Origin: Chiloscyllium plagiosum
Lineage: Eukaryota
Assembly (NCBI RefSeq): GCF_004010195.1
Contig: NC_057735.1
Span: forward strand, 18,134,056-18,198,055
Reading direction: 5' to 3'
Length of the DNA stretch: 64,000 bases
The first letter of the stretch is position 1, and every line of letters begins with the position of its first letter. The translations under genes were made by a program, and so were the position numbers. Of this stretch, positions 1,804 through 61,472 are shown piece after piece. The notes under the pieces are model-generated. The model had not been told where the DNA came from and did no database searches. It saw only the letters and a program-made list of their open reading frames with translations.

Positions 1804-1958
1804 TTCAGGCAGCATCCGACGAGCAGCAAAATCGACGTTTCGGGCAAAAGCCCTTGATCAGGAATAAAGGCAGAGTGCCTGAAGCGTGGAGAGGGTGGGG
1901 TTGGGGAGAAAGTAGCATAGAGTACAATGGGTGAGTGGGGGAGGAGATGAAGGTGATA
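1804..1958 (-). mobile_element. Penelope-like element 3' terminus (pseudo-LTR) with degenerate hammerhead motif, running into an N gap
   Basis: Minus strand reads ATTC-CTGATCA-A-GGGC-TTTT-GCCC-GAAAC-GTC-GATT, similar to the termini at 49200-49330 and 8400-8533. Core G8 is mutated to C. Confidence 0.8.
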
Positions 1959-2165
1959 NNNNNNNNNNNNNNNNNNNNNNNNNNNNNNNNNNNNNNNNNN
2001 NNNNNNNNNNNNNNNNNNNNNNNNNNNNNNNNNNNNNNNNNNNNNNNNNNNNNNNNNNNNNNNNNNNNNNNNNNNNNNNNNNNNNNNNNNNNNNNNNNNN
2101 NNNNNNNNNNNNNNNNNNNNNNNNNNNNNNNNNNNNNNNNNNNNNNNNNNNNNNNNNNNNNNNNN

Positions 2166-3660
2166 TGCACTAACTCTTCAGCGATCTCCCTTACAAGGCT
2201 GGGGTGTAGTCCATCTTGTCCAGGTGAGTTATCCACATTCAGGCCATTCGGTTTTCTAACATGTTCATCTTGGTGATGGCCACTGTATTTAGGACTGCCC
2301 TCTCACTCTCTTCAATTCTTGGGAAATTACTCGTGAAGACTGATGCAAAATTCCTCAGCTATTTCTTTGCTTCCCACTACTGTCTTTCCAGCATCATTTC
2401 CCAGTGGTCCATATTCACATTTACCTCTCTTTTTCACTTTATATATCGAAAGAATTTCTGACAGTTTCCTTTATATTACTGGTTAGCTTGCCCCATACTT
2501 AATCTTCTCCATCATTATTTATTTTTTCTTGCCTTCTGTTGGTCTCAATTCTCCAGTTTCCCACTGCCCTTCACTCTGCTTGCTCTTTTGCATATATACA
2601 ATCCCTGACTTCCCTTGTCAGCCCTGGTTGCCTCATCCTCCCTGTACCATGCCTCTAATACACAGCATGAATTTCTGCAGTGTCGTTTAAATTATCGTGG
2701 AATCTCCAGCCATTGCTGTTATCCTGTCTTTCCTGCTAGACGCCTGTCCCGGTCAATTCTACCCAGCTTCTCCCTTATGTCTCTCCAGTTGCCTTTATTC
2801 AGCTGAAATACTGTTAACTCTGATTCTATGTTCTCTCTCAAATTGCAGAATAGATTCAACTATGCTCTGATCACTGCTTCTGAAGTTTTCCTTCACCTTA
2901 AGTTCCCTTGTCCATCCTGCGTCATTAAATCCACTGTCATCTGTTCCCGAGTGGGCTCCACCACATGATGCTCCAAAAAGCGATCCCGTAGACATTATTC
3001 AAATTCCTTTTCTTGCGATTCACTACCAACCTGGTTTCCCATTACAGTTGCATATTGAAATTCCCCGTGATCACTGTAACTTTGCCTTTCCTACAGATCT
3101 TTTCTATATCTTGGTGTATCTTGTGCCCCAGCTCCTGACTACTCTTTGGAGGCTTGTGCAAGTCTCCAACTGTGATTGTCTTACCTTTGTGGTTCCTCAA
3201 TTCTACCCACGCAGATTCTACACCATCTGACCTTATTTCCTTTCTTATTGTTGATTTAATTTCATTTCTTATTAATAAAGTAAACCCACTCCCTCTGTCA
3301 TTTCCATAGGGTATATGTCCTTGAATATCCTGATCCCCTTGCAGCCACTTCTCTGTGATGCCCATCACGTCATACCTACCAATTGAAATCTATGCTACAA
3401 GCTCTTTTACCCTATTCCTTATACTGCACGCATTCAAATATAACCTTTCAATCTTGTATTAACGGTCCCTCTTCTATTGCCATTTATTTGTCCTGTGTGC
3501 TTGAAGTTTGATTGGTTACACTTTCCATACACTCTCTCCTATTTGCGTCTCTGCTGGAGATTTTAATAACCTCTCCTGAGCTCTGTACTCTTACCTACTC
3601 TTTTCTAATTAAACTCTATAACGGAACTCCCACCCCGCGCACACACACACTCCTAATCAG
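2166..3660 (-). mobile_element. Decayed CR1 LINE fragment (APE endonuclease and linker region)
   Basis: ORF remnants GITEKWLQGDQD...VESAWVELRNHKGK...VITGNFN (APE domain) and SPGQDGLHP..LVREIAEEL (pre-RT motif of CR1). Confidence 0.8.
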
Positions 3661-3669
3661 TTTAAAACT

Positions 3670-3813
3670 CTGTCTACATCGGCTTCAGCGGTGTAGAGGT
3701 CAGTGCGCCAGACTACCACTGCGCCCCCTTTATCCGCTGGCTTAATTGTGAGGTTGGGATTAGAGCAGAGGGATTGGATGGCTGTGCAGCATCTGCAGTC
3801 ATTGTTTTTACCC
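3670..3813. mobile_element. Small chimeric Penelope-like insertion (inverted RT fragment plus pLTR end)
   Basis: 3670-3785 is the reverse complement of PLE RT sequence at ~47090-47200 (IKPADKGGAVVVWRTDLYTAEA), joined to the plus-strand pLTR end CAGCATCTGCAGTC. Confidence 0.65.
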
Positions 3814-3984: not shown

Positions 3985-5395
3985 CAGAGTCAGATGAAAA
4001 GCGTGGAAACAGACCCTTCGGTCAAACCCGTCCATGCCGACCAGATATCCCAACCCAATCTAGTCCCATTTGCCAGCACCTGGCCCATATCCCTCCAAAC
4101 CTTTCGTATTCATATACCCATCCAAATGCCTCTTAAATGCTGCAATTGTACCAGCCTCCACCATATCCTCTGGCAGCTCATTCCATACCCATACCACGCT
4201 CGGTGTGAAAAAGTTGTCCCATAGGTCTCTTTTATATCTTTCCCCTCTCACCCTAAACCTATGCCCTCTAGTTCTGGACTCCCCCACCCCCAGGGAAAAG
4301 ACTTTGCCTATTTACCCTATCCATGCCCCTCATAATTTTGTAAACCTCTATAAGGTCACCCCTCAGCCTCTGACACTCCAGGGAAAACAACCCCAGCCCG
4401 TTCAGCCTCTCCCTATAGCTCACATCCTCCAACCCTGGTAACATCCATGTAAATCTTTTCTGAACCCTTCAAGTTTCACAATATCTTTCCTATAGGAAGG
4501 AGACCAGAACTGCACATAATATTCCAACAATGGCCTAACCAATGTCCTGTACAGCTGTAACATGACCTCCCAACTCCTGTACTCAATACTCTGACCAATA
4601 AAGGAAAGCATACCAAACACCTTCTTCACTATCCTATCTACCTGCGACTCCACTTTCAAGGAGCTATGAACCTGCACTCCAAGGTCTCTTGGTTCAGCAA
4701 CACTCCCCAGGACCTTACCATTAAGTGTATAAGTCCTGCAAAGATTTGCTTTCCCAAAATGCAGCACCTCGCATTTATCCAAATTAAACTCCACCTGCCA
4801 CGTCTTGGCCCATCAAGATCCTGTTGTAATCTGAGGTAACCCTCTTCGATGTCCACGACACCTCCAATTTTGGTGTCATCTGCAAACTTACTAACTGTAC
4901 CTCTTATGCTCGCATCCAAATCATTTATGTAAATGACAAAAAGTGGAGGACCCAGCACTGATCCTTGTGGCACTCCATTGGTCACAGGCCTCCAGTCTGA
5001 TAAACAACCCTCCACCACCACCCTCTGTCTTCTACCTTTGAGCCAGTTCTGTATCCAAATGGCTAGTTCTCCCTGTATTCCATGAGATCTAACCTTGCTA
5101 ATCAGTCTCCCATGGGGAACCTTGTTGAACGCCTTACTGAGGTGTATATAGATCACGTCTACTGCTCTGCCCTCATCAATCCTCTTTGTTACTTCCTCAA
5201 AACATTCAATCAAGTTTATGAGACATGGTTTCCCACGCACCAAGCCATGTTGACTATCTCTAATTAGTCCTTGCCTTTCCAAATACATGTACATGCTGTC
5301 CCTCAGGATTCCCTCCAACAACTTGCCCACCACCAAGGTCAGGCTCACTGGTCTTTAGTTCCCTGGCTTTACCACCCATCTTAAATAGTGGCAAG
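3985..5395 (-). mobile_element. 5'-truncated CR1 LINE (RT domain and 3' end), frameshifted
   Basis: ORFs 4656-5348 (SLTLVVGKLLE, GVPQGSVLGP, KFADDTK), 4420-4794 (LYRTLVRPLLEY..QFWSP) and 4060-4287 (RTRGHRFRV...VWNELPE), ending in a CR1-type tail. Confidence 0.95.
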
Positions 5396-5756
5396 CATGA
5401 CTCCGGCTCAGTTCTGAAGAGTCGTCACACTGGACTTCAAATGTTAACTCTGTATTTCTCCTCTCAGATACTGTCGAACCTGCTTAGTGTTTCCAGCACT
5501 TTGTTTCTTTTTAAATTTCTGTTGTCTGAATAGGGCAGGAGCAAAAAAAAGGCAGAAGTTGATTTATGTTTCTCAACTGAAGAAAATTAGCACTACGCGT
5601 AGGAATAAGTTGTATATGAAATATGCAAAAATGTGCTAGATCAGGCACGATGGGCCGAATGGCCTAATTCTATTCCTATATCTTATGATGCAACCCTTTG
5701 AAATCACATATCATTCAAATTGATCAAAGCCAATTTAATTTTGGCTATTAAAACCG

Positions 5757-6360: not shown

Positions 6361-6465
6361 TGGGCCAGCCATGGCCCAATCCTTAGAAATAAGGATGGGA
6401 GGAAAGATAGACTTTGTACTGCTGACCAATACAAATGAATTGAATCCAAACTGGTTTTATTGCTG

Positions 6466-7270
6466 GGAGAAAGTGAGGACTGCAGGTGCTGGAGATCAGA
6501 GCTGAAAATGTGTTGCTGGAAAAGTGCAGCAGGTCAGGCAGCATCCAAGGAGCAGGAGAATCGACGTTTCGAGCATGAGTCCTTCTTCAGGAATGAGGAG
6601 AAGGTGCCAAGCAGGCTAAGATAAAAGGTAGGGAGGAGGGACTTGGGGGAGGGGCGTTGGAAATGCGATAGGTGGAAGGAGGTTAAGGTGAGGCCAGAGT
6701 GGGGGTGGGGGTGAAGAGGTCAGGAAGAAGATTGCAGGCTAGGAAGGTGTTGCTGAGTTCGAGGGTTGGGACTGAGACAAGGTGGGGGGAGGGGAAATGA
6801 GGAAACTGGAGAAGTCTGAGTTCATCCAGTGTGGTTGGAGGGTTCCTAGGCGGAAGATGAGGTGCTCTTCCTCCAGCTGCCGTGTTGCCGTAGTCTGGCG
6901 ATGGAGAAGTCCAAGGACCTGCATGTCCTTGGTGGAGTGGGAGGGGGAGTTGAAGTGTTGAGCCACAGGGTGGTTAGGTTGGTTGGTCCTCTGAAACGTT
7001 CCGCAAGTAGGCGGCCTGTCTCCCCAATATAGAGGAGGCCACATTGGGTGCAGCGGATGCAGTAAATGATGTGTGTGGAGGTGTAGGTGAATTTGTGGCG
7101 GATATGGAAGGATCCCTTGGGGCCTTGGAAGGAAGTAAGGAAGGGGGGAGGTATGGGTGCAAGTTTTTCATTTCTTGCGGTTTCAGGGGAAGGTGCCGGG
7201 AGTGGAGGTTGGGTTGGTGGGGGATGTGGACCTGACGAGGGAGTCACGGAGGGAGTGGTCTTTTCGGAAC
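6466..7270 (-). mobile_element. Penelope-like element, 3' part (GIY-YIG endonuclease plus pLTR with hammerhead motif)
   Basis: ORF FTYTSTHIIYCIRCTQCGLLYIGETGRLLAERF...HPVAQHFNSPSH...LEEEHLIFRLGTLQP (GIY-YIG). Hammerhead-like core at 6559-6594. Confidence 0.9.
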
Positions 7271-7639: not shown

Positions 7640-9606
7640 TAGCGAGTTTTTGAGAAGATTTGTAGCTCAGGTTGAGGTTTTGGATATAGGTTTGCTCGCT
7701 GAGCTGAAAGGTTCATTTCCAGATGTTTCGTTACCTTTCTAGGTAACATCTTCAGTAGGCCTCATGTGGAGCAATGCTGAAAATTCCTGCTTTCTATCAA
7801 TCAACATTAACCTGGCCAAGAAAACACTGACTACACTATTAGAAGACCCAAAGACTTGTACATCAAACACCACGAACTTCATCAATAAGGAGAATATCAT
7901 CAAGCTAGTGGACCGATGCCTTTCCACCCACTTCACCTTCAACAACAGAAACTACAGACAAACCAATGGAACACCCATGGGATCTCCGATATCAGGGTTC
8001 TTAGCAGAGGCAGTAATGCAGAGACTTGAGCAAACAGCTCTGCCAACCAACCAACCCAAACTTCCATATCTGCCACAGATTCACCTGCACCTCCACACAC
8101 ATCATCTATTGCATCCTCTGCACCCGATGTGGCCTCCTCTATATTGGGGAGACAGGCCGGCTACTTGCAGAGCGTTTCAGAGAACACCTCTGGGACACCC
8201 GGACCAACCAACCCAACCACCCTGTAGCTCAACATTTCAACTCCCCCTCCCACTCCACCAAGAATATGCANNNNNNNNNNNNNNNNNNNNNNNNNNNNNN
8301 NNNNNNNNNNNNNNNNNNNNNNNNNNNNNNNNNNNNNNNNNNNNNNNNNNNNNNNNNNNNNNNNNNNNNNNNNNNNNNNNNNNNNAGCCTGCTGGACAAA
8401 CTTTCCTCATTCCTGAAGAAGGGCTTATGCCCAAAACGTCGATTCTCCTGTTCCCTGGATGCTGCCTGACCTGCTGCGCTTTTCCAGCAACACATTTTCA
8501 GCTCTGATCTCCAGCATCTGCAGACCTCACTTTCAACCCAAATCCTGGGTCCGCTACATGAATGACCCCTTTGTCATCACTAAATGAAACAAGTTAGAGG
8601 AAACCTTCAAGACCATCAATAATACCCTTACTAGCATAAACTTCACTAAAGAGGAGGAAAACAACAACAAACTGCCATTCCTAGATGTCACAGTAGAGCA
8701 AACAGCCAATGATGAAATTCAAACCAGTGTCTACAGAAAAACAACACATGCAGACCAAATATTGAACTACAGAAGCAATCATCCCAAAACCCACAAATGA
8801 AGCTGCATCAGAACATTATTTCAACGAGCCAACACACACTGCAGCACAGAGGAACAATGCAGAGCAGAGGAAAATCACCTATACTGTGTATTCAAAACAA
8901 ATGGGTACCCAATGAACACAGTCTGCCGATTTCTCAGCAACAAACCCAAACAAGCAGACAAAACACATCCAGAAACCCTAGCCATTCTCCCCTACATCAA
9001 AGACATCTCGGAAATGACTGCCAGACTACTCAGACCCCTTGGCGTCATGGGAACCCACAAACCCACCAACACACTAAAACAGCAACTAATGAACTTGAAA
9101 GACCCTATACAGAAAATGAGCAAAACCAACGTAATTTACAAAATACTGTGAAAGAACTGTAACAAAACACTACATTGGACAAACAGGCAGAAAACTAGCC
9201 ACCACGATACATGAACACCATCTCGCCACAACTCGACATGACCCTCTCTCACTAGTATCCTCACATACTGATGAGAAAGGACACCACTCCTACTGGGACA
9301 ACACATCCATCCAAGGACAAGCCAAACAAAGACACGCACAAGAATTCCTGGAAGCATGGCATTCCAACAGGAACTCTATCAACAAACAGAGTTAGACCCC
9401 ATCTACCACCCCCTAAGAAAAGGAGCAGGAAGTGACTTCACCACAAGAAATGACATCACCAATCCAAAGAAACCCAAACATATAAATAGAAAACAGGAAT
9501 TTTTAACATTGCTTCACATGAGACCCACTGAAGATGATGTTACCTAGAAAGGTAACAAAACGTCTGGAAATGAACCTTTCAGTTCAGTGAACATACCTAC
9601 ATCCAA
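7640..9606 (+). mobile_element. Penelope-like element (second family) with inverted 5' pLTR, RT C-terminus and GIY-YIG, interrupted by a nested PLE
   Basis: YRQTNGTPMGSPISGFLAE (RT) and LPYIKDISE...HKPTNTL...NVIYKI (GIY-YIG). Arm 7640-7797 is inverted relative to 9480-9606. Flanking duplication AACATAATAGCT (7628) / AACATAAATAGCT (9607). Confidence 0.9.
8061..8533 (+). mobile_element. Nested Penelope-like 3' fragment (GIY-YIG plus pLTR), containing an N gap
   Basis: FTCTSTHIIYCILCTRCGLLYIGETGR. Flanked by CAACCCAAA at 8052-8060 and 8534-8542; host RT sequence resumes after it (WVRYMND). Confidence 0.9.
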
Positions 9607-9639
9607 AACATAAATAGCTGTTCTTTCCAGATTCAATTA

Positions 9640-10392
9640 AATGCAATCCGTGACTACCTGGTCAGGTCTGCACTCCCCAACAACCAACCCTCCCTTCCTG
9701 GCACCCTGCCCTGCCACCGCAGGAATTGTAAAACCTGTGCCCACACCTCCTCCCTCACCTCCATCCAAGGCACCAAAGGAGCATTCCACATCCAAATGTT
9801 TCACCTGCACATCCACCAATGTCATTTATTGTATCCGTTGCTCCTGATGCGGTCTCCTCGACATTGGGGAGACTGGACGCCTCCCAGCAGAGCGCTTTAG
9901 GGAACATCTCCGGGACACCTGCACCAATCAACCCCATCACTCTGTGGCCCAACATTTCAACTCCCCCTCCCACTTTGCCGAGGACATGCAGGTCCTGGAT
10001 TTCCTCCACCACCTCTCCCTCACCACCCAACGTCTGGAGGAAGAACACCTCATCTTCCGCCTCGGAACACTTCAACCCCAGGGCATCGGTGTGAATTTCA
10101 CCAGTTTCATTTCCCCTTCCCCCACCTCACCCCAGCTCCAACCTTCCAGTTCAGCACCTCCCTCATGACCTGTCCTACCTGCCTGTCTTCCTTTCCACCT
10201 ATCCACTCCACCCTCCTCTCTGACCCATCACCTCCATTCACCCATTGTACTCTATGCTACTTTCTCCCCACCCCCACCCCCCTCTCATTTATCTCTCCAC
10301 TCTGCAGGCACCCTGCTTCTACTACTTTTGCCCGAAACGTCGGTTTTCCTGCTGCCTGACCTGCTGTGCTTTTCCAGCACCACTCTGATCTA
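9640..10392 (+). mobile_element. Penelope-like element 3' fragment (GIY-YIG plus partly deleted pLTR)
   Basis: FTCTSTNVIYCIRCS and AQHFNSPSHFAEDMQVL...RLEEEHLIFRLGTLQPQG; terminus TTTTGCCCGAAACGTCGG...TTTTCCAGCACCACTCTGATC. Confidence 0.88.
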
Positions 10393-12014
10393 AACACATC
10401 TTTTACCTAGTATACTCTGCTACCTGTTGCAAATGTTTCCTTCACTTTACTGTGAAATTCCAAACAGAAATTGATCTCAGATGCACTGCTGGTTACATGT
10501 AAATCAATAAAATTCATTTTTAAATAGATGCTAATTAAAATGTATTAAAACAATTCCAACATAATTAGAATAATCCTTACATCATTCCTGATAGAAGTTC
10601 CAATGGAGAAGAGGACAAACTTGTCAATTTGCTCTGCGTCTGAGGGAATATAGTCTTTTTAATGAATGCATCCAACAAATACACTTAAGAGGGGCGATTT
10701 TCATTATTCATAACATACTTTCAAAAAAAGATCAACTCACCAAATCCGTCCTGCCTGGTTTAGTAATCTCAGTATCCTTAAAGAATCTGCTTTTTTCAGA
10801 CAGCTGTATTTCACACATCAAGTTCAGGTTTAGCTGCAAACCTTTCTCCCAATACATTGTTATTCATGTAAAAATCAGCCTTGAGAACGGTTTGAACATT
10901 TGATTTCCCCAAGTTGAGAAGCAAAACAAAGGTGGAAAGGAATGGAGCCTGTTAGTGGTGGAATGATTTACAGATGAAGAAAAATAGTAATGTCCCTCAA
11001 AAAACAGCTTTTTTAATCATGCCAAGAACTTGGCAAATGAGGATGTCAATAGTTTTAAAATATTTCTTTTCCCATAATTGCATCTAATTTTCAAATCAGA
11101 AGGCTGTAAAAGGAAGAAATGTAATATTGAATATCCTTTTGCCCCCAGAATTTGTTTTAGTAGTTAGATAGGCCATTTATATATAACAAAACAATATATT
11201 GTTTAACTTGTGCAGACACAATTACATCAGATTACCAACAATTAACTTTGGAATATGACAGTTGGTTATAATCCATGCGTGAGTTTATTAGTGTTTTGAC
11301 ATTGTCTTCTCTGCTGCATCGTTGATCACCAAAAGACACTTAAAGACTTTATATACTTGGTGATATCTGCAAGGATAATATGCTAAAATTGACAGTTTCA
11401 GTTTAGGTCCTAGCATAAATTATTGCTACAACATAATGTAAATAGGAAAAGATCAGTGGCTTTCCCAATACAAACCAGAGACGTCAGTCATGATGTGGCT
11501 TGAGAAGATGTTTGTCCAGTACTTATTACTTCTAATTTGTTTTCATCTTAAGAAACTATTGTTCTGAAAGTTAAGAATTTCATTTGATCTTGAATATTGC
11601 TTGACTTGTTGCAGCAGCAAAACTGTCTGCATTGGTAATTTGCACAAATTGTAGTGGTCATTGAAACATGCTTCTTGCTATCTGTTAATTCTAGGTACTG
11701 ATGAGTTGGAAAAGGGAGGTAACAGTAACTCAGGTCAGTTTTTTTTTGCCTTTTATAGCAGTTAATATTGTGAGTGATTAAGAAGTTTTAATCCCAATAT
11801 ATAACAGTGTCCATAACATAAAACAGCAATGACATTTGACTAAAGTTCACTGTAAAAACGTAGGAGAAAAGAGATTTAGATGTTAAGAAAGCTGAGAAAG
11901 TGTGTTGGGTCACTGGTTCTCATGGCCTATCCCTCATTTTAAAACAAATAAAAAAGTTAAATTCCCACAATCAGGGTGAACTGTACACAATACACACAAC
12001 AAAAAAGAATCAGC

Positions 12015-13561: not shown

Positions 13562-13838
13562 GAGTGGCATGGTGGCTCAGTGGTTAGCACTGCTGCCTCA
13601 CAGTGCCAAGGAATCTGGGTTCATTTTCACCCTCAGGTGACTTGTGGCATTTGCACATTCATCCCATGTCTACGTCAGTTTCCTCCCACAGTTTGAAGAT
13701 GTGCAGGCTAGGTGGATTAGTCATGGGAAGTGCAAGGTTATAGCGCAAGGGGATAGGGTCTGGGTGGGATGCTCTTCACAGGGGTGGGTGGACTCAAACG
13801 GACTAAATGGCCTGCTTCCACACTGTAGGGATGTTATG
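13562..13838 (+). mobile_element. Diverged HE1/V-SINE-type tRNA-derived SINE
   Basis: GGCATGGTGGCTCAGTGGTTAGCACTGCTGCCTCACAG head, TTCCTCCCACAG core and a CR1-like 3' tail. Confidence 0.85.
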
Positions 13839-24596: not shown

Positions 24597-25180
24597 TAAT
24601 GATCAAATTATGCTTACATACACTTTGTATGAACAATACAGCTTTACAAAAAAAAAAGCCAGATCAACATTTGGTTATCCAATTAATATCTTTCTTATCA
24701 AATAAAAATTTGGATCATCATGGCATACATCTCATTTTCAAGGAGTTGTGAACCTTCATATTGTATTTGCTGCAGCTGATGCGATTGCATAAGGCATTAT
24801 ATAAGGAATAGTATGAAGCTGTTGGACTGTTCAATCTGCACACATTTAAACCAGTTCACTGCCATGTAATCACAATACAGCAAAACTGTTAAGAAAAAGC
24901 CAAAGGGAGAAAAGATTGTGCATTTCCTTCCAAATTGAACATGCCAATTTTACCTGCATTTTGAGAACTGAATTAGAACAATTCTTAGTTGAAGTCAATA
25001 CTTTATGAAATATCTCCCTGATCCTTAATAGTATAGTGCAAATTCAGCTAATCAATATTAAAGCAGTCAAACCTGGTCTCACAGTTGTTCAATGTCCCAA
25101 ACAAAGAGACGCAAAAGTGAAAGCAAAGGAATTTAGAATCTAATTTCATAAACATTAGAAGTGCGTTTATATTTTGAACT

Positions 25181-25270
25181 GTTAAAAATCACAACACCAG
25201 GTTACAGTCCAACAGGTTTATTTGGAAGGACTAGCTTTCAGATCAGTTACCTGAAGGAGTAGCACTATAG
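25181..25270. mobile_element. PLE pLTR fragment (same family as 37930-38058 and 55135-55290)
   Basis: GTTAAAAATCACAACACCAGGTTACAGTCCAACAGGTTTATTTGGAAG..CTAGCTTTC is shared with those copies. Confidence 0.7.
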
Positions 25271-27265: not shown

Positions 27266-27267
27266 TA

Positions 27268-30880: not shown

Positions 30881-30899
30881 CCATCATTCAAAGCTGTGG

Positions 30900-31680: not shown

Positions 31681-31837
31681 ATGTTTCTTTATTTAAGAAA
31701 CAATTTTCCATTTCAGACCACAATTAAAAATACAGAAAAATAAATTTTAAAATTGTCTTTATACCATTGATGATATTCTGCGGTTGACAGCCATCCTCTT
31801 CACTATCAACTATATGGCCACTTTGTGTTTTCTGAAA

Positions 31838-34500: not shown

Positions 34501-34797
34501 ATACAATTATGATAATCAACTACAAAAATTAAATACCTGAACTATCAAGCAAAGTTTTATTGTGTACAGGATCACATTGTGACTAATACTATCCAGTATT
34601 ATCAGCTGGGATCATAACAGTGTGGTACAGAAAATGCAATCTGGTAGAATTTCCTATTGTACCAACAGAAGGTGTAATAGCAATCTCCACAATTTCCTGG
34701 CATGTGACCCAAGAAATTAGTATAGGGTGGAAGGAAGGAAAGATGCACATAACAAAAATTAAGAGAATTCTATCCTGCAGGAAAGATGCATAGTTTT

Positions 34798-36071
34798 AGG
34801 GTGTAGGTTTGCTCGCTGAGCTGTAGGTTTGATATCCAGATGTTTCATTACCTGGCTAGGTAACATCATCAGTGGCAACCTCTAAGTGAGCCGAAGCTGT
34901 TGTCTCCTGTTTTCTATTTATATCTTTCTCCTGGATGGGGTTCGTGATGATGTCAATTCCTGTTCGTTTTCTGAGGGGTTGATAGATGGCACCTAGATCT
35001 ACGTGTTTGTTTATGGCATTGTGGTTGGAGTGCCAGGCCTCTAGGAATTCTCTGGCATGCCTTTGCTTAGCCTGTCCCAAGATAGATGTGTTGTCCCAAT
35101 CGAAATGATGGCTTTTTTCATCCATGTGTAGGGCTACAAGGGAGAGAGGGTCGTGTCTTTTTGTGGCTAGCTGTTGTTCGTGTATCCTGGTGGCTAACTT
35201 TCTTCCTGTTTGTCCTATGTAACACACACAAACAAAGCTGTATCAGAACACTATTCCAACGAGCCACCACACTGCAGCACAGACGAACTACGCAAAACAG
35301 AGGAGAACCACCTATACAACGTATTCAAGAAGAACGGATACTCAAAAAACACAGTGCGCCGATTCCTCAAGATCAAACCACGACAAGCAGACCAAACAGC
35401 CAGAAACCCTAACCACCTTACCATACATCAAAGAAGTTTCAGAAATGACAGCCAAACTACTAAGACCCCTCGGAATTCTAGTAGCACACAAACCCACCAA
35501 CACACTCAAACAAAAACTAACAAACTTAAAAGACCCAGTACAACCCATGGACAAAAACCAACGTCATCTACAAAATTCCATGCAAGGGCTGCCACAAACA
35601 CTACGTAGGACAAACAGAAAGAAAGTTAGCCACCAGGATACATGAACACCAGCTAGCCACAAAAAGACACAACCCTCTCTCCCTCGTAGCCCTACACACG
35701 GATGAATAAAAGCCACCATTTCGACTGGGAAAACACATCTATCCTGGGACAGGCTAAGCAAAGGCATGCCAGAGAATTCCTAGAGGCCTGACAGTCCAAC
35801 CACAACACCATAAACAAACACAGAGCTCGATGCCATCTATCAACACCTCAGAAAATGAACAGGAAATGACATCACCACAAACCTCAGGAACCCCATCCAG
35901 GAGAAAGATATAAATAGAAAGCAGGAGAAAACAGCTTCGCTTCACTTGGAAGTCGCCACTGATGATGTTACCTAGCCAGGTAATGAAACGTCTGGATATC
36001 AAGCCTACAGCTCAGCGAGCAAACCTACATCCTAAATCTCAACCGGAGCTACAAACCTTCACAAACATTGC
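34798..36071 (+). mobile_element. Penelope-like element with inverted 5' copy of its 3' end and a 12-bp TSD
   Basis: 34798-35220 is a minus-strand copy (YIGQTGRKLATRIHE...AREFLEAWHS) of 35600-36035. Flanked by ATGCATAGTTTT at 34786-34797 and 36072-36083. Confidence 0.95.
35956..35995 (+). ncRNA. Minimal type I hammerhead ribozyme motif in a PLE pLTR
   Basis: CCA-CTGATGA-T-GTTACCT-AGCC-AGGTAAT-GAAAC-GTC-TGG: stem I CCA/TGG, intact core, 7-bp stem II, palindromic ACGT stem III and a GUC cleavage triplet. Confidence 0.75.
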
Positions 36072-37004: not shown

Positions 37005-38058
37005 GATCCCACAGACTTATATGTATGTGCATGTGCATGAGGGAGAGATTGAGACGATATGTGTGCATGTGAGAGGGAGAGAGGGAGTGTGTGCATGTAC
37101 ATGCGTGCTTGATAGAGTGTGTGCACAAGTGTGACAGAGCATATACCTATGAGAGGGTGTGCACAGAGTGCAGGTGTGTGCATCTCGTGAGTGTAATCAT
37201 GTGCCAGTGTGCATGTGTATGTGTGTGTGTGTGTGTGTGAGTGTGCAAGAGAGTGGAGAGGGTAGTGAGGGTCATCTGTAGTGTGATACGAACCCAAGGT
37301 CCCAGTACCGAACTTGGCTATCAACCTCTGCTCAGTGACTCTGTTGTTGCATATCCCGCAGTCCTCCTTGGAGGACGGTCACTCTAAGATCTTAAGCCGA
37401 AGTCCCTTGACTGCTGAAGTGTTCAGCAGCCCTGGGAGGGGACAGCCCTGTTTGGTGATTGTTGCAGTGTCTATTCAACCATTATTGTCGACACACACTC
37501 TCTTACTCCCCCTCTCATTCACATGCACATGCATGCGCATACACACAAGTCTATGGGGTAAATTTGCATTTGCAGATACATTCTATTTTATTCAAAAAGC
37601 AAACAATCTGCAGGCAGTCAGTCCATGTGACTTTTATAAATTCCTACTTTTGAAATAGAATCAGTCTGACTCAAGGTTGGAATACAGACAGATGCTCGCC
37701 TCACACCGTTAATGCATTGTCTGAGCTGAGATGTCACTTTTTTAAAAAAATAAAACCTTAAATTATCTCAGGACTGTGACTTGAAAGTAGTTCTGAGATT
37801 TACGTATTAACGAATCGAAACCTGCAACCATTTTAAGTGATTAAGACTTAACAGCAATCTAGTCTTGCTCAATACATTGCATCAGTTGATCTTTTACTAT
37901 AAATTCTGTATCCCCTGATCCTGCCTCACTACCTACCTGTCGAAGGAACAGTGCTCCGAAAGCTTGTTCTTCCAAATAAACCTGTTGGATTATAACCTGG
38001 TGTTGTGTGATTTTTGACTTTGCCCACCCCAATCCAACTCCAGCACCTCCACATCACA
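37005..38058. mobile_element. Third Penelope-like family: inverted 3' fragments with CA/TG-rich tract and pLTR
   Basis: 37005-37060 is the reverse complement of 37510-37565. The minus arm encodes a GIY-YIG C-terminus (VTEQRLIAKFGT). Degenerate hammerhead CTGTCGA-A-GGAAC-AGT-GCTCC-GAAAGCTT at ~37937-37965. Confidence 0.75.
37205..37245. repeat. (TG)n microsatellite within a TG-rich tract
   Basis: gtgtgcatgtgtatgtgtgtgtgtgtgtgtgtgagtgtg. Confidence 0.9.
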
Positions 38059-39600: not shown

Positions 39601-39638
39601 TAATCCAGAACATTACAGAAGTCAACCCCCCATCTACA

Positions 39639-39844
39639 GAGCTGAAAATGTGTTGCTGGAACAGCACAGCACATCAGGCAGCATCCAGGGAACAGGAGAA
39701 TCGACGTTTCGGGCATAAGTCCTTCTTCAGACTTATGCCCGAAATGTCGATTCCCCTGTTCCCTGGATGCTGCCTAACCTGTTGTGCTGTTCTAACAACA
39801 CATTTTCAGCTCTGATCTCCAGCATCTGCAGACCTCACTTTCTC
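39639..39844. mobile_element. Fold-back mini-insertion made of two inverted PLE pLTR ends
   Basis: Arms 39639-39720 and 39731-39812 are inverted repeats, flanked by CCCCATCTACA / CCCCATTTACA. Confidence 0.88.
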
Positions 39845-40649
39845 CCCCATTTACACTTCTCATTGCCGTGGAAAGATTTCCAAAATCAAAGACCCCCTCC
39901 CAGCCCAGTAATACTCTCATACGTTTTCATCAGGCAGTAATACTTTCATCAGGCAGAAGATACAGAAGCTTGAACACACATACAACAGGTTCAAGAACAG
40001 CTTCTCTGCTGTTAATAGACTGATGAATGGACTCACTAAATAATATTGATCTTGCTTCACACACCTCCTGTGCAGTGTAACCTGTATGCCTCATTCTGTA
40101 TAAGCACCCTATGATCTGCCTGTACTGCTCACAAACAAAGCATTTCACTGTACTTAGGTACACACGACTAAAATAATCAAATGATGTTTGACTCAATGAC
40201 CTGCAGCTTCTCAGTTTATCACGATTACTTCTAAGTAATGGTACTACCTTCACGGTCATCCAGTCTTCTGGCATCTTTCCGGGAGATCAGAAAAAAATCT
40301 GAAAATAAATGACTAAAACCCAAATCTACTGCTTTCTTGGTTCCTACAGCACCGTTGTATATACTTCTAGGGCTGCGGATCTCTCGTTTTTTTTTTCACT
40401 TTTATATCGGCCAATACGTCCTTCTCTCGATGGAAACCTGTTTAAGTATAGGTCACCTCGTTGATTTCTATAATTCTTCTTCTCTATAGTGAACACAGCT
40501 ACACCATTTAAATCATTTGCTTTCAGCAGAACTATTCGTAAATGGGATTTGGGCCAGCAGAAGCGATACATTACCTATGCTTCTCAATAAATGTACACTC
40601 TCCCGGTTATAAACTGTCCTGTTAAAGGGATACACAAATAATACCAGGG

Positions 40650-41300: not shown

Positions 41301-41624
41301 CAAGGTTACAGTAAACCTAGGCTGGTTTACACATTCAGTACTGTACGGCATTGCACTATTGTAAAGCATTCTTAAAACTGTTGATTTAAATATCAAAGTG
41401 ATTACTAAGGGGATCAAGGGTTACGGGAGAACGAAGGAGAACGGGGTCGAGAAACGTCAGCCATGGTCCAATGGCGGAGCAGGCTCAATGGACCGAATGG
41501 TCTAATCCTAGAAATGGCTGGAAATACATAACAGGTCTGTTAGCATCTGTGGACAGAGCATGATAGAAATATCGTTTCGGATCGATGACCTTTCATCAAC
41601 CTTCGTAAGATTTTGAATGGCAAG

Positions 41625-49216: not shown

Positions 49217-49252
49217 ATTCCTGATGAAGGGCTTTTGCCCGAAACGTCGATT
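49217..49252 (+). ncRNA. Minimal type I hammerhead ribozyme motif in a PLE pLTR (sense to PFKFB2)
   Basis: ATTC-CTGATGA-A-GGGC-TTTT-GCCC-GAAAC-GTC-GATT: intact core, perfect 4-bp stem II and ACGT palindromic stem III; stem I is weak. Confidence 0.72.
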
Positions 49253-49379
49253 TTCCTGCTCCTCGGATGTTGCCTTTCCTGCTGTGCTTTTCCAGCACTG
49301 CTCTGATCAAAACTCTGGTTTCCAGCATCTGCAGTCCTCACTTTTGCCTTTCAATAATCTACCTAGTGTGCTTTATATA

Positions 49380-51715: not shown

Positions 51716-52114
51716 TTTTTAAATTATAAATCACATTGTATGTAAAGCAATAACTGGTGCATGTAAACAGATTTTTGCAGGTATAAAACATGTTTCTATT
51801 TCTCATCTCTCTCCACACCCAGAATTCTTTGGGGCCTCCACCCTGAAGCCATTTTTCATGTGGTTTATAAATTTCAAGATTGGGCAGACCAACGCCTTTT
51901 TCCAAGGAGATCTTCAACTTGATCTTGAATACTCATGGAAGTCAGTTGCTTTTGGTTTTTATGTTTCTTACCAATTTATTTTTATCATCAAATCTTTCCC
52001 TTATTATTAGTTATTTTGTCATCCACCGTGAATTCCTGTATTCAAAAATCCCAATTCTTGCACTACATTACTTTTTTGCATGCTTCATATGCCTGGCAAA
52101 GAACAATAAAGTCG

Positions 52115-52200
52115 AATGTGTGGTGCTGGAAAAGTACAGCAAGTGAGGCAGCATCCAAGGAGCAGGAGAAAAAATGTTGTCGGGCATAAGCCCTTCCCCA
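52115..52200 (-). mobile_element. Short PLE pLTR fragment
   Basis: GTGCTGGAAAAGTACAGCAAG..GGCAGCATCCAAGGAGCAGGAGAA...CGGGCATAAGCCCTTC matches 61390-61470. Confidence 0.75.
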
Positions 52201-53443: not shown

Positions 53444-53737
<294 letters not shown>

Positions 53738-54349: not shown

Positions 54350-54685
54350 GGCAGCATGATGGCACAGTGATTAGCATTGCTGCCTCACAGTGCAAGGAAC
54401 CTGGGTCTGCCTTTAGGTGACTGTCTGTGTGGAGTTTGCACATTCTCTTCATGTCTGCGTGAGCTTCTTTAGTGTGCTCCAGTTTCCTCCCACAGTCCAA
54501 AGATATGCAGGTTGGGTGGATTGGCCATGCTAAATTGTCCAGGGATGTTTAGACTAGGCTGGTCAAGGGGAATGCAGGGTTAAGGGGATAGGTGGCGGGG
54601 TGGGTCTTCGTGGGATGTTCTTCAGAGGATTGGTGTGAACTCGATGGGCCGAATGTCCTGGTTTCATACTGTAGGGATTCTATGA
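54350..54685 (+). mobile_element. Diverged HE1/V-SINE-type SINE nested in an older minus-strand LINE tail (54070-54755)
   Basis: GGCACAGTGATTAGCATTGCTGCCTCACAG head, TTCCTCCCACAGTCCAAAGAT core, GGGATTCTATGA tail. Confidence 0.85.
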
Positions 54686-55134
54686 CAGTGCTGTCTAAAG
54701 GGCTTCGGTGAATTTCTGCAGTACAACACATAGATGCTGCATGCTGCTGGTACTGAGCATTGTTTAACACTGAAGCTCATTGTCTGCTTTTTTTTCTGGC
54801 CCAGAATAATTTGGGACTTGGGGGTGGCCTGTGTGATTTTCCGTGCTCTCCCTGTGCATACCATTTGCATCAACAAAATAGATGTACTTGGAAGAAAGAA
54901 TGAAAGCAGAAGTTGCACTGAGATAGAAACGGGGAAAAAATGAAAGCTTAGGGTCAAAATCTAGATTAGAATGGATAATTTTTTAAATTATTGTATATAT
55001 CACTGCATTATCCTATTTCCAGCTTTATCCATATGACTGTATTCTGACTTTATATAAAATCTATAATATTGGATTTCCTTTAGGCATCTGTTTATGAATA
55101 TTAAAAACCTCAAATCTTCCTTTAAGCACACAAT

Positions 55135-55290
55135 TTGGAGATGTCGGTGTTGGACTGAGGTGTACAAAGTTAAAAATCACATAACACCAGGTTATGGTCC
55201 AACAGGTTTAATTGGAAGCACACTAGCTTTTGGAGCGCCGCTTCTACATAAACCTGTTGGTCTATAACCTGGTGTTGTGTGATTTTTAAC
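55135..55290. mobile_element. Fold-back mini-insertion of PLE pLTR (third family) with a 12-bp TSD
   Basis: Arms ~55168-55210 and ~55248-55290 are inverted; TAAGCACACAAT occurs at 55123-55134 and 55291-55302. Confidence 0.88.
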
Positions 55291-55505
55291 TAAGCACACA
55301 ATATTGTGTTTTATTCTAGTACCAGTCCAAAAATACTAGATTTATTAAATTTAATTGTATGATATATCATGATGAGATTTGAATTCACCACCAAAACGTT
55401 TACACTTTGCATCATTCTTCTTAAGATTTCCACTATCTTGAATGGGGATTTCAACTGAATTCTAAGTTCTAAGCATTGCATTTCTTTCTTTCCTAATCCC
55501 CTAGC

Positions 55506-56644: not shown

Positions 56645-58400
56645 CCATAAGACCATATGAATAGGGAGTGAAAGCAGGCCAATCATCCATCAAGTCTGAT
56701 CTGTCATTCAATGTGCTTTTGGCTGATTTGATAAACCTCAACTTCACTTCTGTCATTTTCCTATAACATTTGATTCAGATACTGATCAAAGATCTGTCTA
56801 TCTCTGCTGTGAATATACTTAACAAAGAAGCCTCAACAGCCCTCTATGGTAAGGAATTCCATTTAGAAGAAATCCCTCCTCATTTTGACCTAACTGGGCA
56901 GCCTCTTAATTTATGCCCAGATTAGAGTGGTGCTGGAAACGCACAGCAGGTCAGGCAACATCTGAGGAGCAGGAAAATTGATGTTTTGGGCAGAAGCCCT
57001 TCATCAGGAATCAGGAATCAGGAACCCTTCATTCATTTCTGATGAAGGGCTTCTGACTGAAACGTTGATTTTCCTCTCCTCAGATGTTGCCTGACCTGCT
57101 GTGCATTTCCAGCACCACTCTAATCTTAACTCTAATCTCCAGCATCTGCAGTCCTCATTTTTGCTTAGTTGATCTTAGCTTATGTCCTCTGGTCCTAGAC
57201 TCTCCTGCAGTGGAAACAATTCTCCATCTGCCCTGTCAAACCCCCAAGAATGTATATATTTCAAGAATGGTGTATATATCACCTCTCATTCTTCTAAATT
57301 TCATACCCTGGGATCAACTGATGAACTTTCTCTGGGTATCTCTAGTGACCTTTGATAGGGGAATCAAAACTTTTCAGTGTTCTAGGTGCCTTGTATAGTT
57401 TTAGTAAAACTTCATTATTTTTCTACTCCATTCACTTAGAATTAAAGTCAAATATTCCATTGCCTTCCTTATAACTTGCTGAACTTATATGCCATTTTTT
57501 ATGATTTATGCACAAGGACTCCCAAATCGCTGTGCTACAGTTTTTGCAGTTTTTCTATTTAAATAATATTTGGCACTCGCTTCATCCTGCTAAAATGCAC
57601 AACCTCTCATTTTTTCACATTTATTCCATCTGCCAAGTTTTTACCCCTCTGGTTTAACCAGTCTATACTCCTTTGCGGACTCTTTATGCCATCCTTGTCA
57701 CTTGCCTTCTCATCTATTCTTGTTATATTCACAAACTTGGTAATGGTACATTCACTTTTCTCATCCAAATCATTAATATATATTAAAATAATTATGGATA
57801 CTACACTTATCCCTGTTATGCACCACTAGCCATCCCGAAATATCCCCTCTTATCCCAACTTTGTCTTCTGCTAGTTAGCCAATTCTCTCTCCATGCTGAT
57901 GTCAAACTCGCCACACCATGGCTCTAATTAAGTAGTCGAAAGGGAGGGAACTTATCAACCACCTTATTTTAATCCAAATATATGACGCCGTTTCGTCTTA
58001 ACACATCCTAGTTATAAACTCTTAAGAGAATTTCAATAAATTTATTAGGAATGATTTCCTCTTTTTGGATCCATGCTGAGTCTGATTATGCAATGTATTT
58101 CTGAAAGGTCTGTTCTTATATCCTTTATAATTGCCTCTAACATTTTTCCAATAACATGTATTTTAAGTTAACTGGCCTATATTTACCTGTTTGTTTTTGT
58201 CACTTCTTTCTGAAAAAAGGCATTATCTTCGTAGTTTTCCCATCCTCTTGCATTTTTCCAGAATCTAATGATGCTTGTAAAATTACTACCTATGCATCCA
58301 CTATCTTTATTGCTACTTTAATAACTCTGTTGCAACAAGTCTAAGGGATCTATTGACTTTTAGCTCCATTAATTTTCCAGCTACTTTTTCTCGAATGATA
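56645..58400 (-). mobile_element. Decayed CR1 LINE (RT to 3' end) interrupted by a fold-back insertion
   Basis: Tail CATAAGACCATATGAATAGG..., similarity to 30900-31680, and RT-region motifs to ~58380. Confidence 0.75.
56919..57179. mobile_element. Fold-back mini-insertion of two inverted PLE pLTR ends
   Basis: Arms 56919-57010 and 57035-57126 are inverted, with junction stutter (TCAGGAA)x3; flanked by TTATGCCC / TTATGTCC. Confidence 0.88.
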
Positions 58401-60443
58401 GTTACTTTTTTTATTTCCAGTCTTCTGTTTTTTTTTCAATTTTGATAACTCATGTCATTGATTTTTTTTAAACTTTGTTTCATTACCTCTGTAAACATAC
58501 CATTCAGTTTCATGAGCGTGTCCCATCATTCGGTTATAAAGGGGGTTGAACTGACTGGTCAGTCTCAAGTAGCATCTTACTACCTAGTATTAAGCAAGTT
58601 CAACAAGAACTAGAAACATATAACCATACAATGAGACTAAATTGGACTTTTGAATTGCATTTACAAACACTTTAAAACGAATCACTTCCTCTAAAACGCA
58701 ATTTTAAGGTCTTGATATGCTGTATAGACATATAGAAGTTCTATTTATTGTCGTTTCTCAATACCCATCGAAATATGAAGCAAGTGACTGGATTTGGCTA
58801 TCTTTAGTACGTTTTGCAAAGTTGAGAATGTAGTTTACATCTGTTCAAATTAATGCTGGACAGTACATATTTATATATGTACATGTTAAGGAATAAAAGC
58901 TTCAAGCAAAGTACATTGGGTGAGGTTAATTTTAATATTAATTATCCATAAACTATATTCACAAATAATAATGGAAAATTATCCTTCAAAAGTATCATAT
59001 GACAAAACTATCAATACTCACTGCTGTTACTCCAGTAAACCTGTTTGCAACTTTGGGAGTCACAGATGCAGAATAATAGAGAAGTCTAGATGTTTTGGAC
59101 AGTAATTCAACTTTTCTCCAAAGATCATACTATTCAAGTCCACTCAAAGTTTAGTCCTTAAGCATTCAGTTAATGACATGGAGGTGCCAGTGTTGGATTT
59201 GGGTGGATTCTCTCTACTTTGAGCCGGCAGTTTGTGATGTCGATAGTAGTCATTCAGTTATTCGACAGTGATTATTTGCATCATGTCGAATGTATTTGCA
59301 TTCAATTGATTGCACCTGCTTATGTCCCAACTCCAGAGTACCAAATGGAGATGAAACGGACTTGGGACCTGCCTGCTGAAGCACATTGGTTCCACACTTC
59401 TTTTCATTACATATAGAGAATAAAGGAAATGTGGATCTGAGGCCTTGTGCAACAAAAAGCAGGAACAACTTAGAAGTGGCTTGGTAGGTGTAAAAGCTAC
59501 CTACCCATCGGCTTTGAGGCTCGTGAAGAATGTGTTTTGGCATGCCCCACTTCAGGCAAGGCAGTTTCAATTTTCAGGAACAGGAATCCACAAATGGGCC
59601 CTATTTGTTGAACCACATTATTGCCATTCTCAACTATTGTCTGAAATGGGGACTGCTGAAGCTTTCTTTTTTCAAGTCTGGTAGTGATGGGAACAATTAC
59701 AACATTTAATAAGTGTTTAGATGAACAATGGACCTGAAACTATTTTTTTACAAATTTCTTTCAAATCATAAAATATGCTCTATGTATAGTCACTAGAGCA
59801 GTTCAGTTCTATACATTCTTTGCTTATTGAAAACAAACATTGGGGTTTGAGTTTCTGTATAGCTACAACAAACACAAAGGCACTTCGTAATTATGCAAAG
59901 TACTATTTACATGTATTTGAAGCATCGGGAGGATCCAATAACTGAACACACCCCCACTGTATTTTTGTAGAAAGATCTTAGATGTTAAATCTGCTTTCTC
60001 TGTACTAATGTTGCCAGATCTGCTGAGTTTTTCCAGTAATTTCTGTTTTTGTTCCATCTTTAATGAGCCCATATTACCCTTTAATGTTTTTCTAAAGTAA
60101 TTATGAAATTTGTTAACTTCTATAGCACTTGCAGATACTTCTGTTGTGGTTTTCTATTGTTTTCTGACTGGCCATTTAGATTGTTTTTCACTTTACCTTG
60201 CATTTTGTGCAAGCTTTTTCTTTAAGCTTAGTTTGTTATGTATATAATTGGTGGTGCTTCCCCTTTAAGACAGCTGTTCAGGTGATTAGAGGAGCAGAAC
60301 TTGCAGTCTAGAGAACTAGCTTTGGAGGTGTGAGTATCATGAGTAACAGGTGTGAGTAACAGGAAAGTGTTCCTGTTCTGATTTGCCATTTGTCTACCTG
60401 GCATATAGTTTCTGGTTCAAAAAGGAAGCACCATCATAATAAA

Positions 60444-60461
60444 TGGCGAGAAGAATGGGAT
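60444..60461 (+). other. Primer-binding site, tRNA-Ser(GCT)-like
   Basis: TGGCGAGAAGAATGGGAT versus the complement of the tRNA-Ser(GCT) 3' end, TGGCGACGAGGATGGGAT (15/18), 2 nt after the LTR end. Confidence 0.7.
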
Positions 60462-61350
60462 CCAGTTCACAAACTGTACGTAAACAGTCTTTTTTTTGTC
60501 CAGGGAGGACGTCATCCAGACTTTGGAAAAGGCGCAATATTAAGGATGTAACATTGCAGAAAAAAGTCGCGAGGAGGCTCATGTTGTGGGTAAATCCAGG
60601 AAAGAACGTATGCTAGCACAGCCAGTGAGGAAGCAGCCAAAATGGAGATGGTTCAGCAAGGGGACCCCAGTTGAAAATGGCTACTGGACTCAAGTGGCAG
60701 GAAAACTAAATGGCAGGCCAATTTGGAGTAGTGGGATCATTTGAAGAGTCAGAAAATGAACTTTACATGGAGCACTTCAGTTCCTTAAAGGTGAACAGAG
60801 GCTGAGGACGTGGTACTTGTTTTCTTAAGTATCTCTGAATCAAGACTTTTGCAATTTTAAGGAGTCTGCTACAGCCACAGAAACAGGCAGAGACGGCATT
60901 CCAAGAGCTATGCCAAGTGTTAGAAAATTATTTCACATGCAAGCCACTGATGATTGCAGAAGGTTTGTGCTTTTACAAATGGGTAGAGGACAAAGGAGAG
61001 TCCTTTAGCAAATTTGTGGCTACTTTCAAGAAGTTAGCAGGACATTGCAAATTCAGAGTGTTCCTCCAAGATGCATTGTGGGGCCTCAGAAATGAAGCCA
61101 TCCAATGGAAGCTTCTAACAAGGAGAAACCTGGATTTCAAGGCAGCTTTCGAAATTGCTGCCTTGATGGAGTTGGCTGCCAGGGAAGCGACCCAGTTGGC
61201 TGTCATCAACTGCTTGTGCCAAATAGTACAAACTCAGCAGAGTGCCATACCAATGTAGAATGCCATCCATGTGGCAAGAGTAGCCATAAGACTCGGAGCC
61301 CAGCACTGCACATGTAAGTCAGTGAGTCATATTGCCCAAAATTGCTGGGA

Positions 61351-61472
61351 GAAAGTGAGGACTGCAGATGCTGGAGATCAGAGCTGAAAATGTGTTGCTG
61401 GAAAAGCACAGCAGGTCTGGCAGCATCCAAGGAACAGGAGAATCGACGTTTCGGGCATAAGCCCTTCTTCAG
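61351..61472 (-). mobile_element. Solo PLE pLTR with intact hammerhead core, inserted in Gypsy gag with a 12-bp TSD
   Basis: AAATTGCTGGGA at 61339-61350 and 61473-61484; minus strand begins CTGAAGA-A-GGGC-TTAT-GCCC-GAAAC-GTC-GATT. Confidence 0.92.

What the first reader, a model, noticed from the sequence alone, without database searches (positions are those of the whole stretch)
1830..61472. Dense set of minimal hammerhead-ribozyme motifs from at least three Penelope-like families
Seen: the pattern CTGANGA + one extra nt + stem II hairpin + GAAA + palindromic stem III + UH recurs with different stem II sequences. Family A (GGGC-TTWT-GCCC): 1830(-), 6559(-), 8409(+), 39699(-), 49217(+), 56975(-), 57037(+), 61441(-). 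Family B (GTTACCT-N4-AGGTAAY, stem I CCA/TGG): 7718(-), 9525(+), 34836(-), 35956(+). Family C (GGARC-N3-GCTCC, GAAAGCT): 37937(+), 55224(-, partial). Degenerate others occur near 5417 and 41572. A conserved core with covarying stems across unrelated families argues for structure-level selection. Known: PLE pseudo-LTRs carry minimal type I hammerheads that typically need dimers through a palindromic stem III. Inference: this shark genome holds a very large, probably unannotated ribozyme population (more than 12 motifs in 64 kb), all with an extra base after A9.
Basis: partly seen in the sequence, partly recalled or inferred. Interest (0 to 1): 0.7.

Follow-up and report, generated by a model that had tools for sequence, protein, structure and literature searches.

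The report
Decayed Penelope retrotransposon ends with hammerheads
These motifs are real copies of the tiny hammerhead self-cutting-RNA motif already known from Penelope-like jumping genes; the genome holds over 68,000 exact copies, but only 3 of the 14 listed here are intact, and most likely record where the element's RNA starts rather than working ribozymes.

Summary
The motifs are real, but they are of a published kind. All 14 listed sites exist and belong to the end repeats (pLTRs) of three Penelope-like element (PLE) families. GIY-YIG remnants lie upstream of A and B, and C has a pLTR-RT-pLTR copy elsewhere in the genome. The architecture matches the min-HHR of Cervera and De la Pena 2014, including the extra base after A9 and the palindromic, loopless stem III. 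Only 3 of 14 pass a strict descriptor (35959+, 49221+, 61472-; shuffles 0.01). Across subfamilies the core is kept and stem I covaries (family B, 16 of 18 copies). Within subfamilies the core decays like the flank (2.4% vs 3.0%, p=0.53). Selection therefore likely acts on source elements, not on inserted copies. Exact genome counts are 48,069, 2,456 and 18,117; window density is ordinary for this genome. Family A stubs begin at the motif's 5' edge, with a G excess, not at the cut site. An apparent cut-site peak is mostly microhomology. RNA reads show a used poly(A) site 27-29 nt past the family C cut. This scan noted the same thing many times before, in this and other genomes.

The parts
49221..49248 (+). 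Family A min-HHR, intact (stem I 2 bp, stem II GGGC/GCCC, ACGU palindrome); predicted cut after 49248; in pLTR piece 48965-49357
35959..35992 (+). Family B min-HHR, intact (stem I CCA/TGG, stem II 7 bp); predicted cut after 35992
61445..61472 (-). Family A min-HHR, core intact, stem I pair 2.1-1.1 turned to U.G; short stub 61341-61476 starting at -4
34792..36065 (.). Family B (Poseidon-type) truncated PLE: + copy 35221-36065 with broken GIY-YIG frame, joined head-to-head to inverted copy 34792-35221 whose motif (34839-34872, -) has lost the palindrome
6457..7250 (-). Family A truncated PLE with GIY-YIG remnant (Pfam E 0.013) and motif 6563-6590 with stem II mismatch
8017..8534 (+). Family A truncated PLE with GIY-YIG remnant (Pfam PF01541 E 4.5e-5) and motif 8413-8440 (G12A); N gap 8271-8385
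8786..9616 (+). Family B truncated PLE, broken GIY-YIG frame, motif at 9528 with 3-nt duplication and G12A
9647..10395 (+).
1804..1958 (-). Family A pLTR piece, motif 1834-1861 with G8C
7649..7797 (-). Family B pLTR piece, motif 7722-7755 with palindrome lost
39637..39846 (.). Head-to-head pair of family A stubs; motif 39703-39730(-) with stem II mismatch; + copy lacks the 5' core
56919..57164 (.). Head-to-head pair of family A stubs; motifs 56980-57007(-) and 57039-57066(+), both damaged
52111..52199 (-).
37898..38054 (+). Family C pLTR: TATAAAT 37898-37904, damaged motif 37937-37965, AATAAA 37975-37980, GT-rich downstream tract
   Evidence: sequence; poly(A) use shown on a family copy
55133..55299 (.). 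Head-to-head pair of family C stubs, both without the 5' core
25178..25244 (-).
5408..5502 (+). Old D-like relative of family A, degenerate motif from 5414
41512..41602 (-). Old D-like relative of family A, degenerate motif

Best explanation
The motifs are minimal type I hammerheads in the pseudo-LTR ends of three Penelope-like retrotransposon families, and the copies in this window are truncated, mostly mutated insertions that are likely inert. Shown: linkage to GIY-YIG/RT remnants, the published min-HHR anatomy, compensatory stem changes between subfamilies, and core decay at flank rate within subfamilies. Inferred mechanism: in a source element (pLTR-ORF-pLTR) transcription likely starts at the motif's first bases, about 30 nt after an AT-rich box in family A, so the hammerhead is the capped first ~32 nt of the RNA. 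It cannot fold alone because stem III has no loop. It would cut only when two copies pair through the ACGU or AGCU palindrome, probably helped by the element's protein. Reverse transcription likely starts inside the RNA about 90 or 125 nt downstream and runs to the cap on uncut RNA. That would give the many 90-130 nt stubs and head-to-head pairs, each carrying the motif but no promoter. Selection keeps the core only in source lineages.
For: PLE link: GIY-YIG Pfam hits upstream of A; GIY-YIG-like frames upstream of B; family C copy L038 has two same-strand motifs 2,517 nt apart around an RT frame. Anatomy equals PMC4209133. Stem I in B: CCA/TGG 8, TCA/TGA 4, GCA/TGC 4 of 18 scorable copies. Stem III is ACGU in A and B, AGCU in C. 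Within-subfamily mismatch at non-CpG sites: A core 10/421 vs flank 65/2143 (p=0.53), C 5/110 vs 25/550 (p=1.0); G12 (CpG) 6/39 and 5/11. A 5' ends: 79 of 152 at -9..+10 (49 at -9..-1), 2 at the cut site. Base before ATTC in 100 listed stubs: C (reference) 34, G 32, A 27, T 7, counted by eye; G is 32 of 66 non-reference bases, p=3e-5. Two 3' end clusters 35-40 nt apart (loose ends at 6466-7 and 6501-10) fit the PLE tail. In Anolis PAc, RT starts internally, the HHR is protein-assisted and cleavage is not needed for insertion (PMC11167929). The active dimer fold lies 12.6-15 kcal/mol above the MFE dimer.
Against: No cleavage assay and no direct 5'-end RNA data. The start site is inferred from DNA ends. 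Some G's may come from the inverted arm, and 13 of the 27 A's are fold-back junctions. Family B does not show the stub pile-up (1 of 30 at -9..-1; 21 of 30 long) and its AT-rich box lies about 48 nt upstream. B core decay was 0/84 vs flank 17/360 (p=0.052), a weak hint of core retention, from 8 copies. The flank used as control may itself be constrained in source elements. The sample is four regions, not random. Nearest-neighbour energies do not model the hammerhead core.
Confidence: 0.8

Rival explanations
1. The genome holds a large population of working ribozymes that cut host transcripts or are kept by host selection (the strong form of the first reader's view).
For: At least 68,642 exact motifs; about 35 strict motifs per Mb; family sequences are in RNA reads; several window copies lie in an intron of a PFKFB-like gene.
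Against: 11 of 14 listed copies are damaged. The core decays at flank rate. Close partners are mostly head-to-head (55 pairs vs 5 same-strand), which would fold as long hairpins and not as dimers. No pile-up of RNA ends on either lay. Published min-HHR monomers did not cleave.
Confidence: 0.08
2. The short copies are an independent non-autonomous element (retrozyme- or SINE-like) that multiplies from its own ribozyme-cut RNA.
For: 110 of 152 A copies start at -9 or later. Tandem retrozymes derived from pLTRs are reported in one chondrichthyan (bioRxiv 10.64898/2026.07.22.740005). Starts at the cut site are about twice the neighbours (990 vs 468 and 500).
Against: No tandem arrays in the window. 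Stubs lack the upstream AT-rich box. Stubs keep the 5' half of the motif, which cleavage would remove. 70 of the 100 listed cut-site starts are microhomology with the element's own sequence or small indels in full copies (by eye). Family C shows no peak (8 of 100 at the cut vs 10 of 100 at +26, by eye).
Confidence: 0.07
3. The motif is kept in source elements for a non-catalytic job (initiator, protein-binding or template structure) and no longer cleaves.
For: Family A stem I is mostly 2 bp plus a U.U mismatch (ATTC/GATT 21, ATTC/GAAT 6). Poly(A) reads run through the C cut site. Naiad PLEs spread without canonical hammerheads (PMC8557442). PAc insertion does not need cleavage.
Against: The catalytic core is shared by three families with unrelated stem II sequences. 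Stems I and III covary as the dimer fold requires. The PAc HHR does cleave with protein, and the C3G/G8C double mutant partly rescues.
Confidence: 0.2

Closest known systems
Minimal hammerheads (min-HHR) in pLTRs of metazoan Penelope-like elements (Cervera and De la Pena 2014, PMC4209133; parts 1-2 of 4 read)
   Same: Type I, no loop 3, palindromic 15.2-16.2, extra nucleotide between 9 and 10.1, G10.1-C11.1 pair, several families per genome, mostly single dispersed copies from truncated PLEs, opposite-strand pairs 100-700 bp apart.
   Different: Count: at least 68,642 exact matches here against about 4,000 (coelacanth) and 9,000 (Xenopus tropicalis) there, with different descriptors and genome sizes. 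Family A has the shorter stems (II 4 bp, I 2-4 bp). The parts read do not mention cartilaginous fish; supplements not read.
Poseidon PLE of Anolis carolinensis, PAc (Frangieh et al. 2024, PMC11167929; parts 1-2 of 4 read)
   Same: HHR in the pLTR, two RT start sites giving a 30-40 nt tail, no RNA-seq reads ending at the cut site, uncut RNA as template.
   Different: In PAc the ORF starts in stem II. In family C the long frame begins about 120 nt past the motif. No activity was tested here.
Neptune/Nematis and Penelope/Poseidon EN+ PLE clades (Craig et al. 2021, PMC8557442; passages read)
   Same: 5' truncation, inverted 5'-truncated copy, tail. Family A has a CX4CXXC linker before GIY-YIG (Neptune/Nematis type). 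Family B has none (Poseidon type).
   Different: Clade not tested by an RT tree. Family C has only a partial Cys linker before a deletion in the copy examined.
Non-LTR retrozymes (bioRxiv 10.64898/2026.07.22.740005; parts 1-3 of 5 read)
   Same: Type I HHR derived from pLTRs; reported in one chondrichthyan; 1 of 9 dimers tested cleaved.
   Different: Retrozymes are tandem arrays with an HHR in each unit; the window has none.

Membership tests
PLE min-HHR (Cervera 2014) | CUGANGA and GAAA-UH core in type I order | tested here: met
   3 strict copies in the window, 36 in 1.06 Mb, shuffles 0.01-0.1; 68,642 exact genome matches
PLE min-HHR (Cervera 2014) | Unpaired nucleotide between 9 and 10.1; G10.1-C11.1 pair | tested here: met
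   Extra base in 36 of 36; G at 10.1 in 33 of 36
PLE min-HHR (Cervera 2014) | Loopless palindromic stem III | tested here: met
   ACGU in A and B, AGCU in C; note that the descriptor required it
PLE min-HHR (Cervera 2014) | Compensatory changes in stems between families | tested here: met
   B stem I CCA/TGG, TCA/TGA, GCA/TGC in 16 of 18 copies
PLE min-HHR (Cervera 2014) | Self-cleavage as a dimer | not testable with these tools
   No assay; no footprint in DNA ends or RNA ends
EN+ Penelope-like element | C-terminal GIY-YIG endonuclease next to the pLTR | tested here: met
   Pfam PF01541 E 4.5e-5 at 8017-8268 for A; B by motif in translation only; absent in the C copy examined, where the ORF jumps to the pLTR
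EN+ Penelope-like element | RT ORF between two pLTRs with a motif in each | tested here: met
   Family C, L038: motifs 2,517 nt apart, RVT_1 E 0.0044, below the Pfam cut-off; no complete A or B unit was found in the 20 loci picked
EN+ Penelope-like element | 5' truncation, inverted partner, 30-40 nt tail | tested here: met
Neptune vs Poseidon clade | RT phylogeny | not tested
   Only the Cys linker was inspected
Non-LTR retrozyme | Tandem array with an HHR in consecutive units | tested here: not met
   No array in the window; 5 close same-strand pairs among 248 copies

The most novel reading that the evidence does not exclude
The pLTR works like a retroviral R region with a ribozyme inside it. 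Start site, hammerhead and (in family C) a used poly(A) site lie within about 65 nt. A full transcript would then carry exactly two hammerheads, one behind the cap and one before the tail. They could pair inside one molecule, remove cap and tail together, and switch the RNA from message to unit-length circle precursor. The tens of thousands of capped-end stubs would map PLE start sites genome-wide.
Probability: 0.3. Interest if true: 0.55.

Novelty: new member of a known kind. Interest (0 to 1): 0.22.

Why it matters
The motif class and its anatomy have been in print since 2014, so the finding as stated is ordinary. Two things have some value. The count is roughly eight times the largest vertebrate figure in the paper read. 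The copy ends give clues on an open question, what PLE hammerheads do: stubs begin at the motif's 5' edge, likely the cap; there is no clean cut-site footprint; family C polyadenylates just past the cut. These point to uncut RNA as the usual template and give specific constructs to test.

Tried and rejected
Rfam scan: no hammerhead family among 14 hits. Cleavage footprint in DNA ends: family A starts at +29 number 990 against 468 (+30) and 500 (+28, overlapping set). About 20 of 100 rows fall at +29 in the pooled list. But 70 of 100 listed +29 rows have junctions that fit the element's own sequence or indels in full copies, so I rejected it as evidence. Family C had no peak. Looking for full A or B units among same-strand pairs from the hit lists: no complete unit in 20 loci; several pairs were independent stubs or a local duplication. 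Run search: no RNA holder listed for window 35600-36070. Run X22 laid no reads, so it is no test. No pile-up of RNA ends on either lay; this is a weak test, as a 28-nt cut product would likely be lost from a poly(A) single-cell library. Lunse, Weinberg and Breaker (PMC5785218) is not held; I saw only its title in a reference list, and it may already list motifs from cartilaginous fish. Literature searches showed no count of min-HHRs in a shark genome; the library lacks most subscription papers, and the bioRxiv supplements could not be seen. Rows dropped: 173 A copies to 152 (alignment score >=60) for end mapping, 76 for the alignment and 42 in clusters of 3 or more for decay rates; two inverted references removed.
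Full report
Observation. All 14 named sites are in the window. A strict descriptor (CTGANGA, optional extra base, stem II of 4 bp or more, GAAA, two complementary bases, UH) passes 3 of them: 35959(+), 49221(+) and 61472(-). One hundred dinucleotide shuffles give a mean of 0.01. The other 11 carry core, stem II or palindrome damage, much of it CpG decay. Profiles built from exact genomic copies find 19 copies in the window (11 A, 4 B, 4 C) and older D-like relics, including the two near 5417 and 41572. Rfam has no matching hammerhead model at E<=10.

What carries them. Where a copy extends upstream, it runs into Penelope-like coding remnants. Family A has GIY-YIG (Pfam E 4.5e-5 and 0.013), preceded in one copy by a CX4CXXC linker, the Neptune/Nematis type by PMC8557442 (passages). 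Family B has a GIY-YIG-like frame without that linker, likely Poseidon type. Family C has a copy with two same-strand motifs 2,517 nt apart around an RT frame (L038). Head-to-head inverted pairs, a known PLE layout, occur four times in the window and 55 times among 248 copies in 1.06 Mb, against 5 close same-strand pairs. No tandem array is present.

Numbers. Exact patterns match 48,069 (A), 2,456 (B) and 18,117 (C) times in the 3.56 Gb assembly, with 0 for reversed controls. In four regions totalling 1.06 Mb (41.5 kb N) there are 36 strict motifs, all with the extra base after A9, and 248 profile copies. That extrapolates roughly to 125,000 strict motifs; the sample is not random. The window is not a special cluster.

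Selection. Between families the core is shared while stem II is unrelated and stem III is ACGU or AGCU. Within B, stem I reads CCA/TGG, TCA/TGA or GCA/TGC in 16 of 18 scorable copies. Within subfamilies, non-CpG mismatch is 10/421 in the core against 65/2143 in the flank for A (p=0.53; 42 copies), 5/110 against 25/550 for C, and 0/84 against 17/360 for B (p=0.052; 8 copies). The catalytic G12 is a CpG site and is changed in 6 of 39 A and 5 of 11 C copies. The structure is thus likely maintained in the few source elements, while inserted copies drift.

Copy ends. Prompted by earlier AI notes, I mapped 5' ends. Of 152 A copies, 49 start at -9..-1 and 30 at +1..+10 of C3, 29 are long, and 2 start at the cut site. 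An AT-rich box lies at -31 to -39 in 16 of 21 long A copies. Among 100 listed stubs that start at -5/-4 (of 3,565), the base before ATTC is the reference C in 34, G in 32, A in 27 and T in 7 (by eye). G exceeds chance (32 of 66, p=3e-5), which fits a copied cap, though inverted junctions contribute. 3' ends form two clusters 35-40 nt apart, the PLE tail. Family B does not show the stub pile-up. I tested the cleavage-footprint lead. Starts at +29 are twice the neighbours (990 vs 468 and 500), but 70 of 100 listed rows are microhomology or indels, and family C has no peak. The lead is not supported in this genome.

RNA. A poly(A) single-cell run with the same species label as the best DNA holder gave 3,303 reads on L009. 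393 and 284 carry poly(T) at +58 and +56 of the family C copy, 27-29 nt past the predicted cut, with no genomic A-run. Mean depth on that strand is 837 over 428-484 against 928 at 436, so most of these reads continue through the cut site at 443/444. No pile-up of ends was reported. This shows uncut, polyadenylated motif RNA; it does not measure cleavage.

Mechanism. A loopless stem III cannot close in one molecule, so two copies must pair through the palindrome, with stem I formed across partners. For the three intact window copies the active dimer fold is 12.6-15 kcal/mol above the MFE dimer, in line with low published activity (PMC4209133) and with the protein dependence shown for the Anolis element, whose insertion does not need cleavage and whose RT starts internally (PMC11167929). 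The most likely picture: the motif is the capped start of the element's RNA, the RT copies uncut RNA from an internal site back to the cap, and the products are promoterless stubs that decay. Start site, cap, dimer and protein help are inferred; linkage, anatomy, covariation, decay, end positions and poly(A) use are shown.

Comparison and verdict. A 2026 preprint reports pLTR-derived retrozymes in one chondrichthyan (parts 1-3 of 5; supplements not seen). A 2019 review summarises the dimer model (PMC6765202, passages and section 11 part 2). PMC6155905 was seen as passages. The scan's index holds 1,136 notes with the same words in at least 37 genomes, several reaching the same reading; these are leads and not support. 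New member of a known kind; interest 0.22. The boldest open reading is the R-region model with two terminal hammerheads removing cap and tail (probability 0.3).

Noticed in passing
window 20989-21729(-) and about 25380-25560(-): Two exons of an OTU1/YOD1-like deubiquitinase gene (Pfam OTU and zf-C2H2_OTU1_C; first exon by motif).
   Followed up: partly
window about 53520-53647(+): Exon of a PFKFB-like 6-phosphofructo-2-kinase (Pfam 6PF2K E 1.9e-17), head-to-head with the YOD1-like gene. Copies at 55.1-61.5 kb lie downstream of its splice donor, likely in an intron; the intact 61472 copy is antisense to it.
   Followed up: partly
L009 415-417 (family C copy, - strand): 393 + 284 reads of run X21 carry poly(T) at +58/+56, just after the ATTAAA/AATAAA signal and before a GT-rich tract, with no genomic A-run. 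Reads are mostly 90-95% alike, so they come from many copies.
   Followed up: yes
G000, rows: 19 of 100 listed family A 'cut-site starts' read TCCTGA then TT: a recurrent 26-nt deletion between two GA repeats that removes the core and stem II, possibly a reverse-transcriptase jump across the folded motif.
   Followed up: no
window 5408-5502, 15046-15127, 41512-41602: Old D-like relatives have a pyrimidine tract plus CAG about 20 nt past the motif, just before an ATG; it looks like a 3' splice site.
   Followed up: no
G000 C26, C2, C10 samples: A very young A subfamily (7 copies, 0.6% from their majority) has a perfect 4-bp stem I (ATTC/GAAT), unlike the U.U mismatch of the main subfamilies; it is the best candidate for an assay.
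   Followed up: partly
window 3992-5373, 27254-28470, 31836-33718, 41637-42237, 44032-44360: Several copies of a LINE-type repeat with RT remnants (RVT_1 E 7.6e-19 at 4659-5354).
   Followed up: no
window 13566-13839, 38956-39269, 48142-48448, 51206-51514, 54354-54685: A 300-nt SINE-like repeat family without a hammerhead motif.
   Followed up: no
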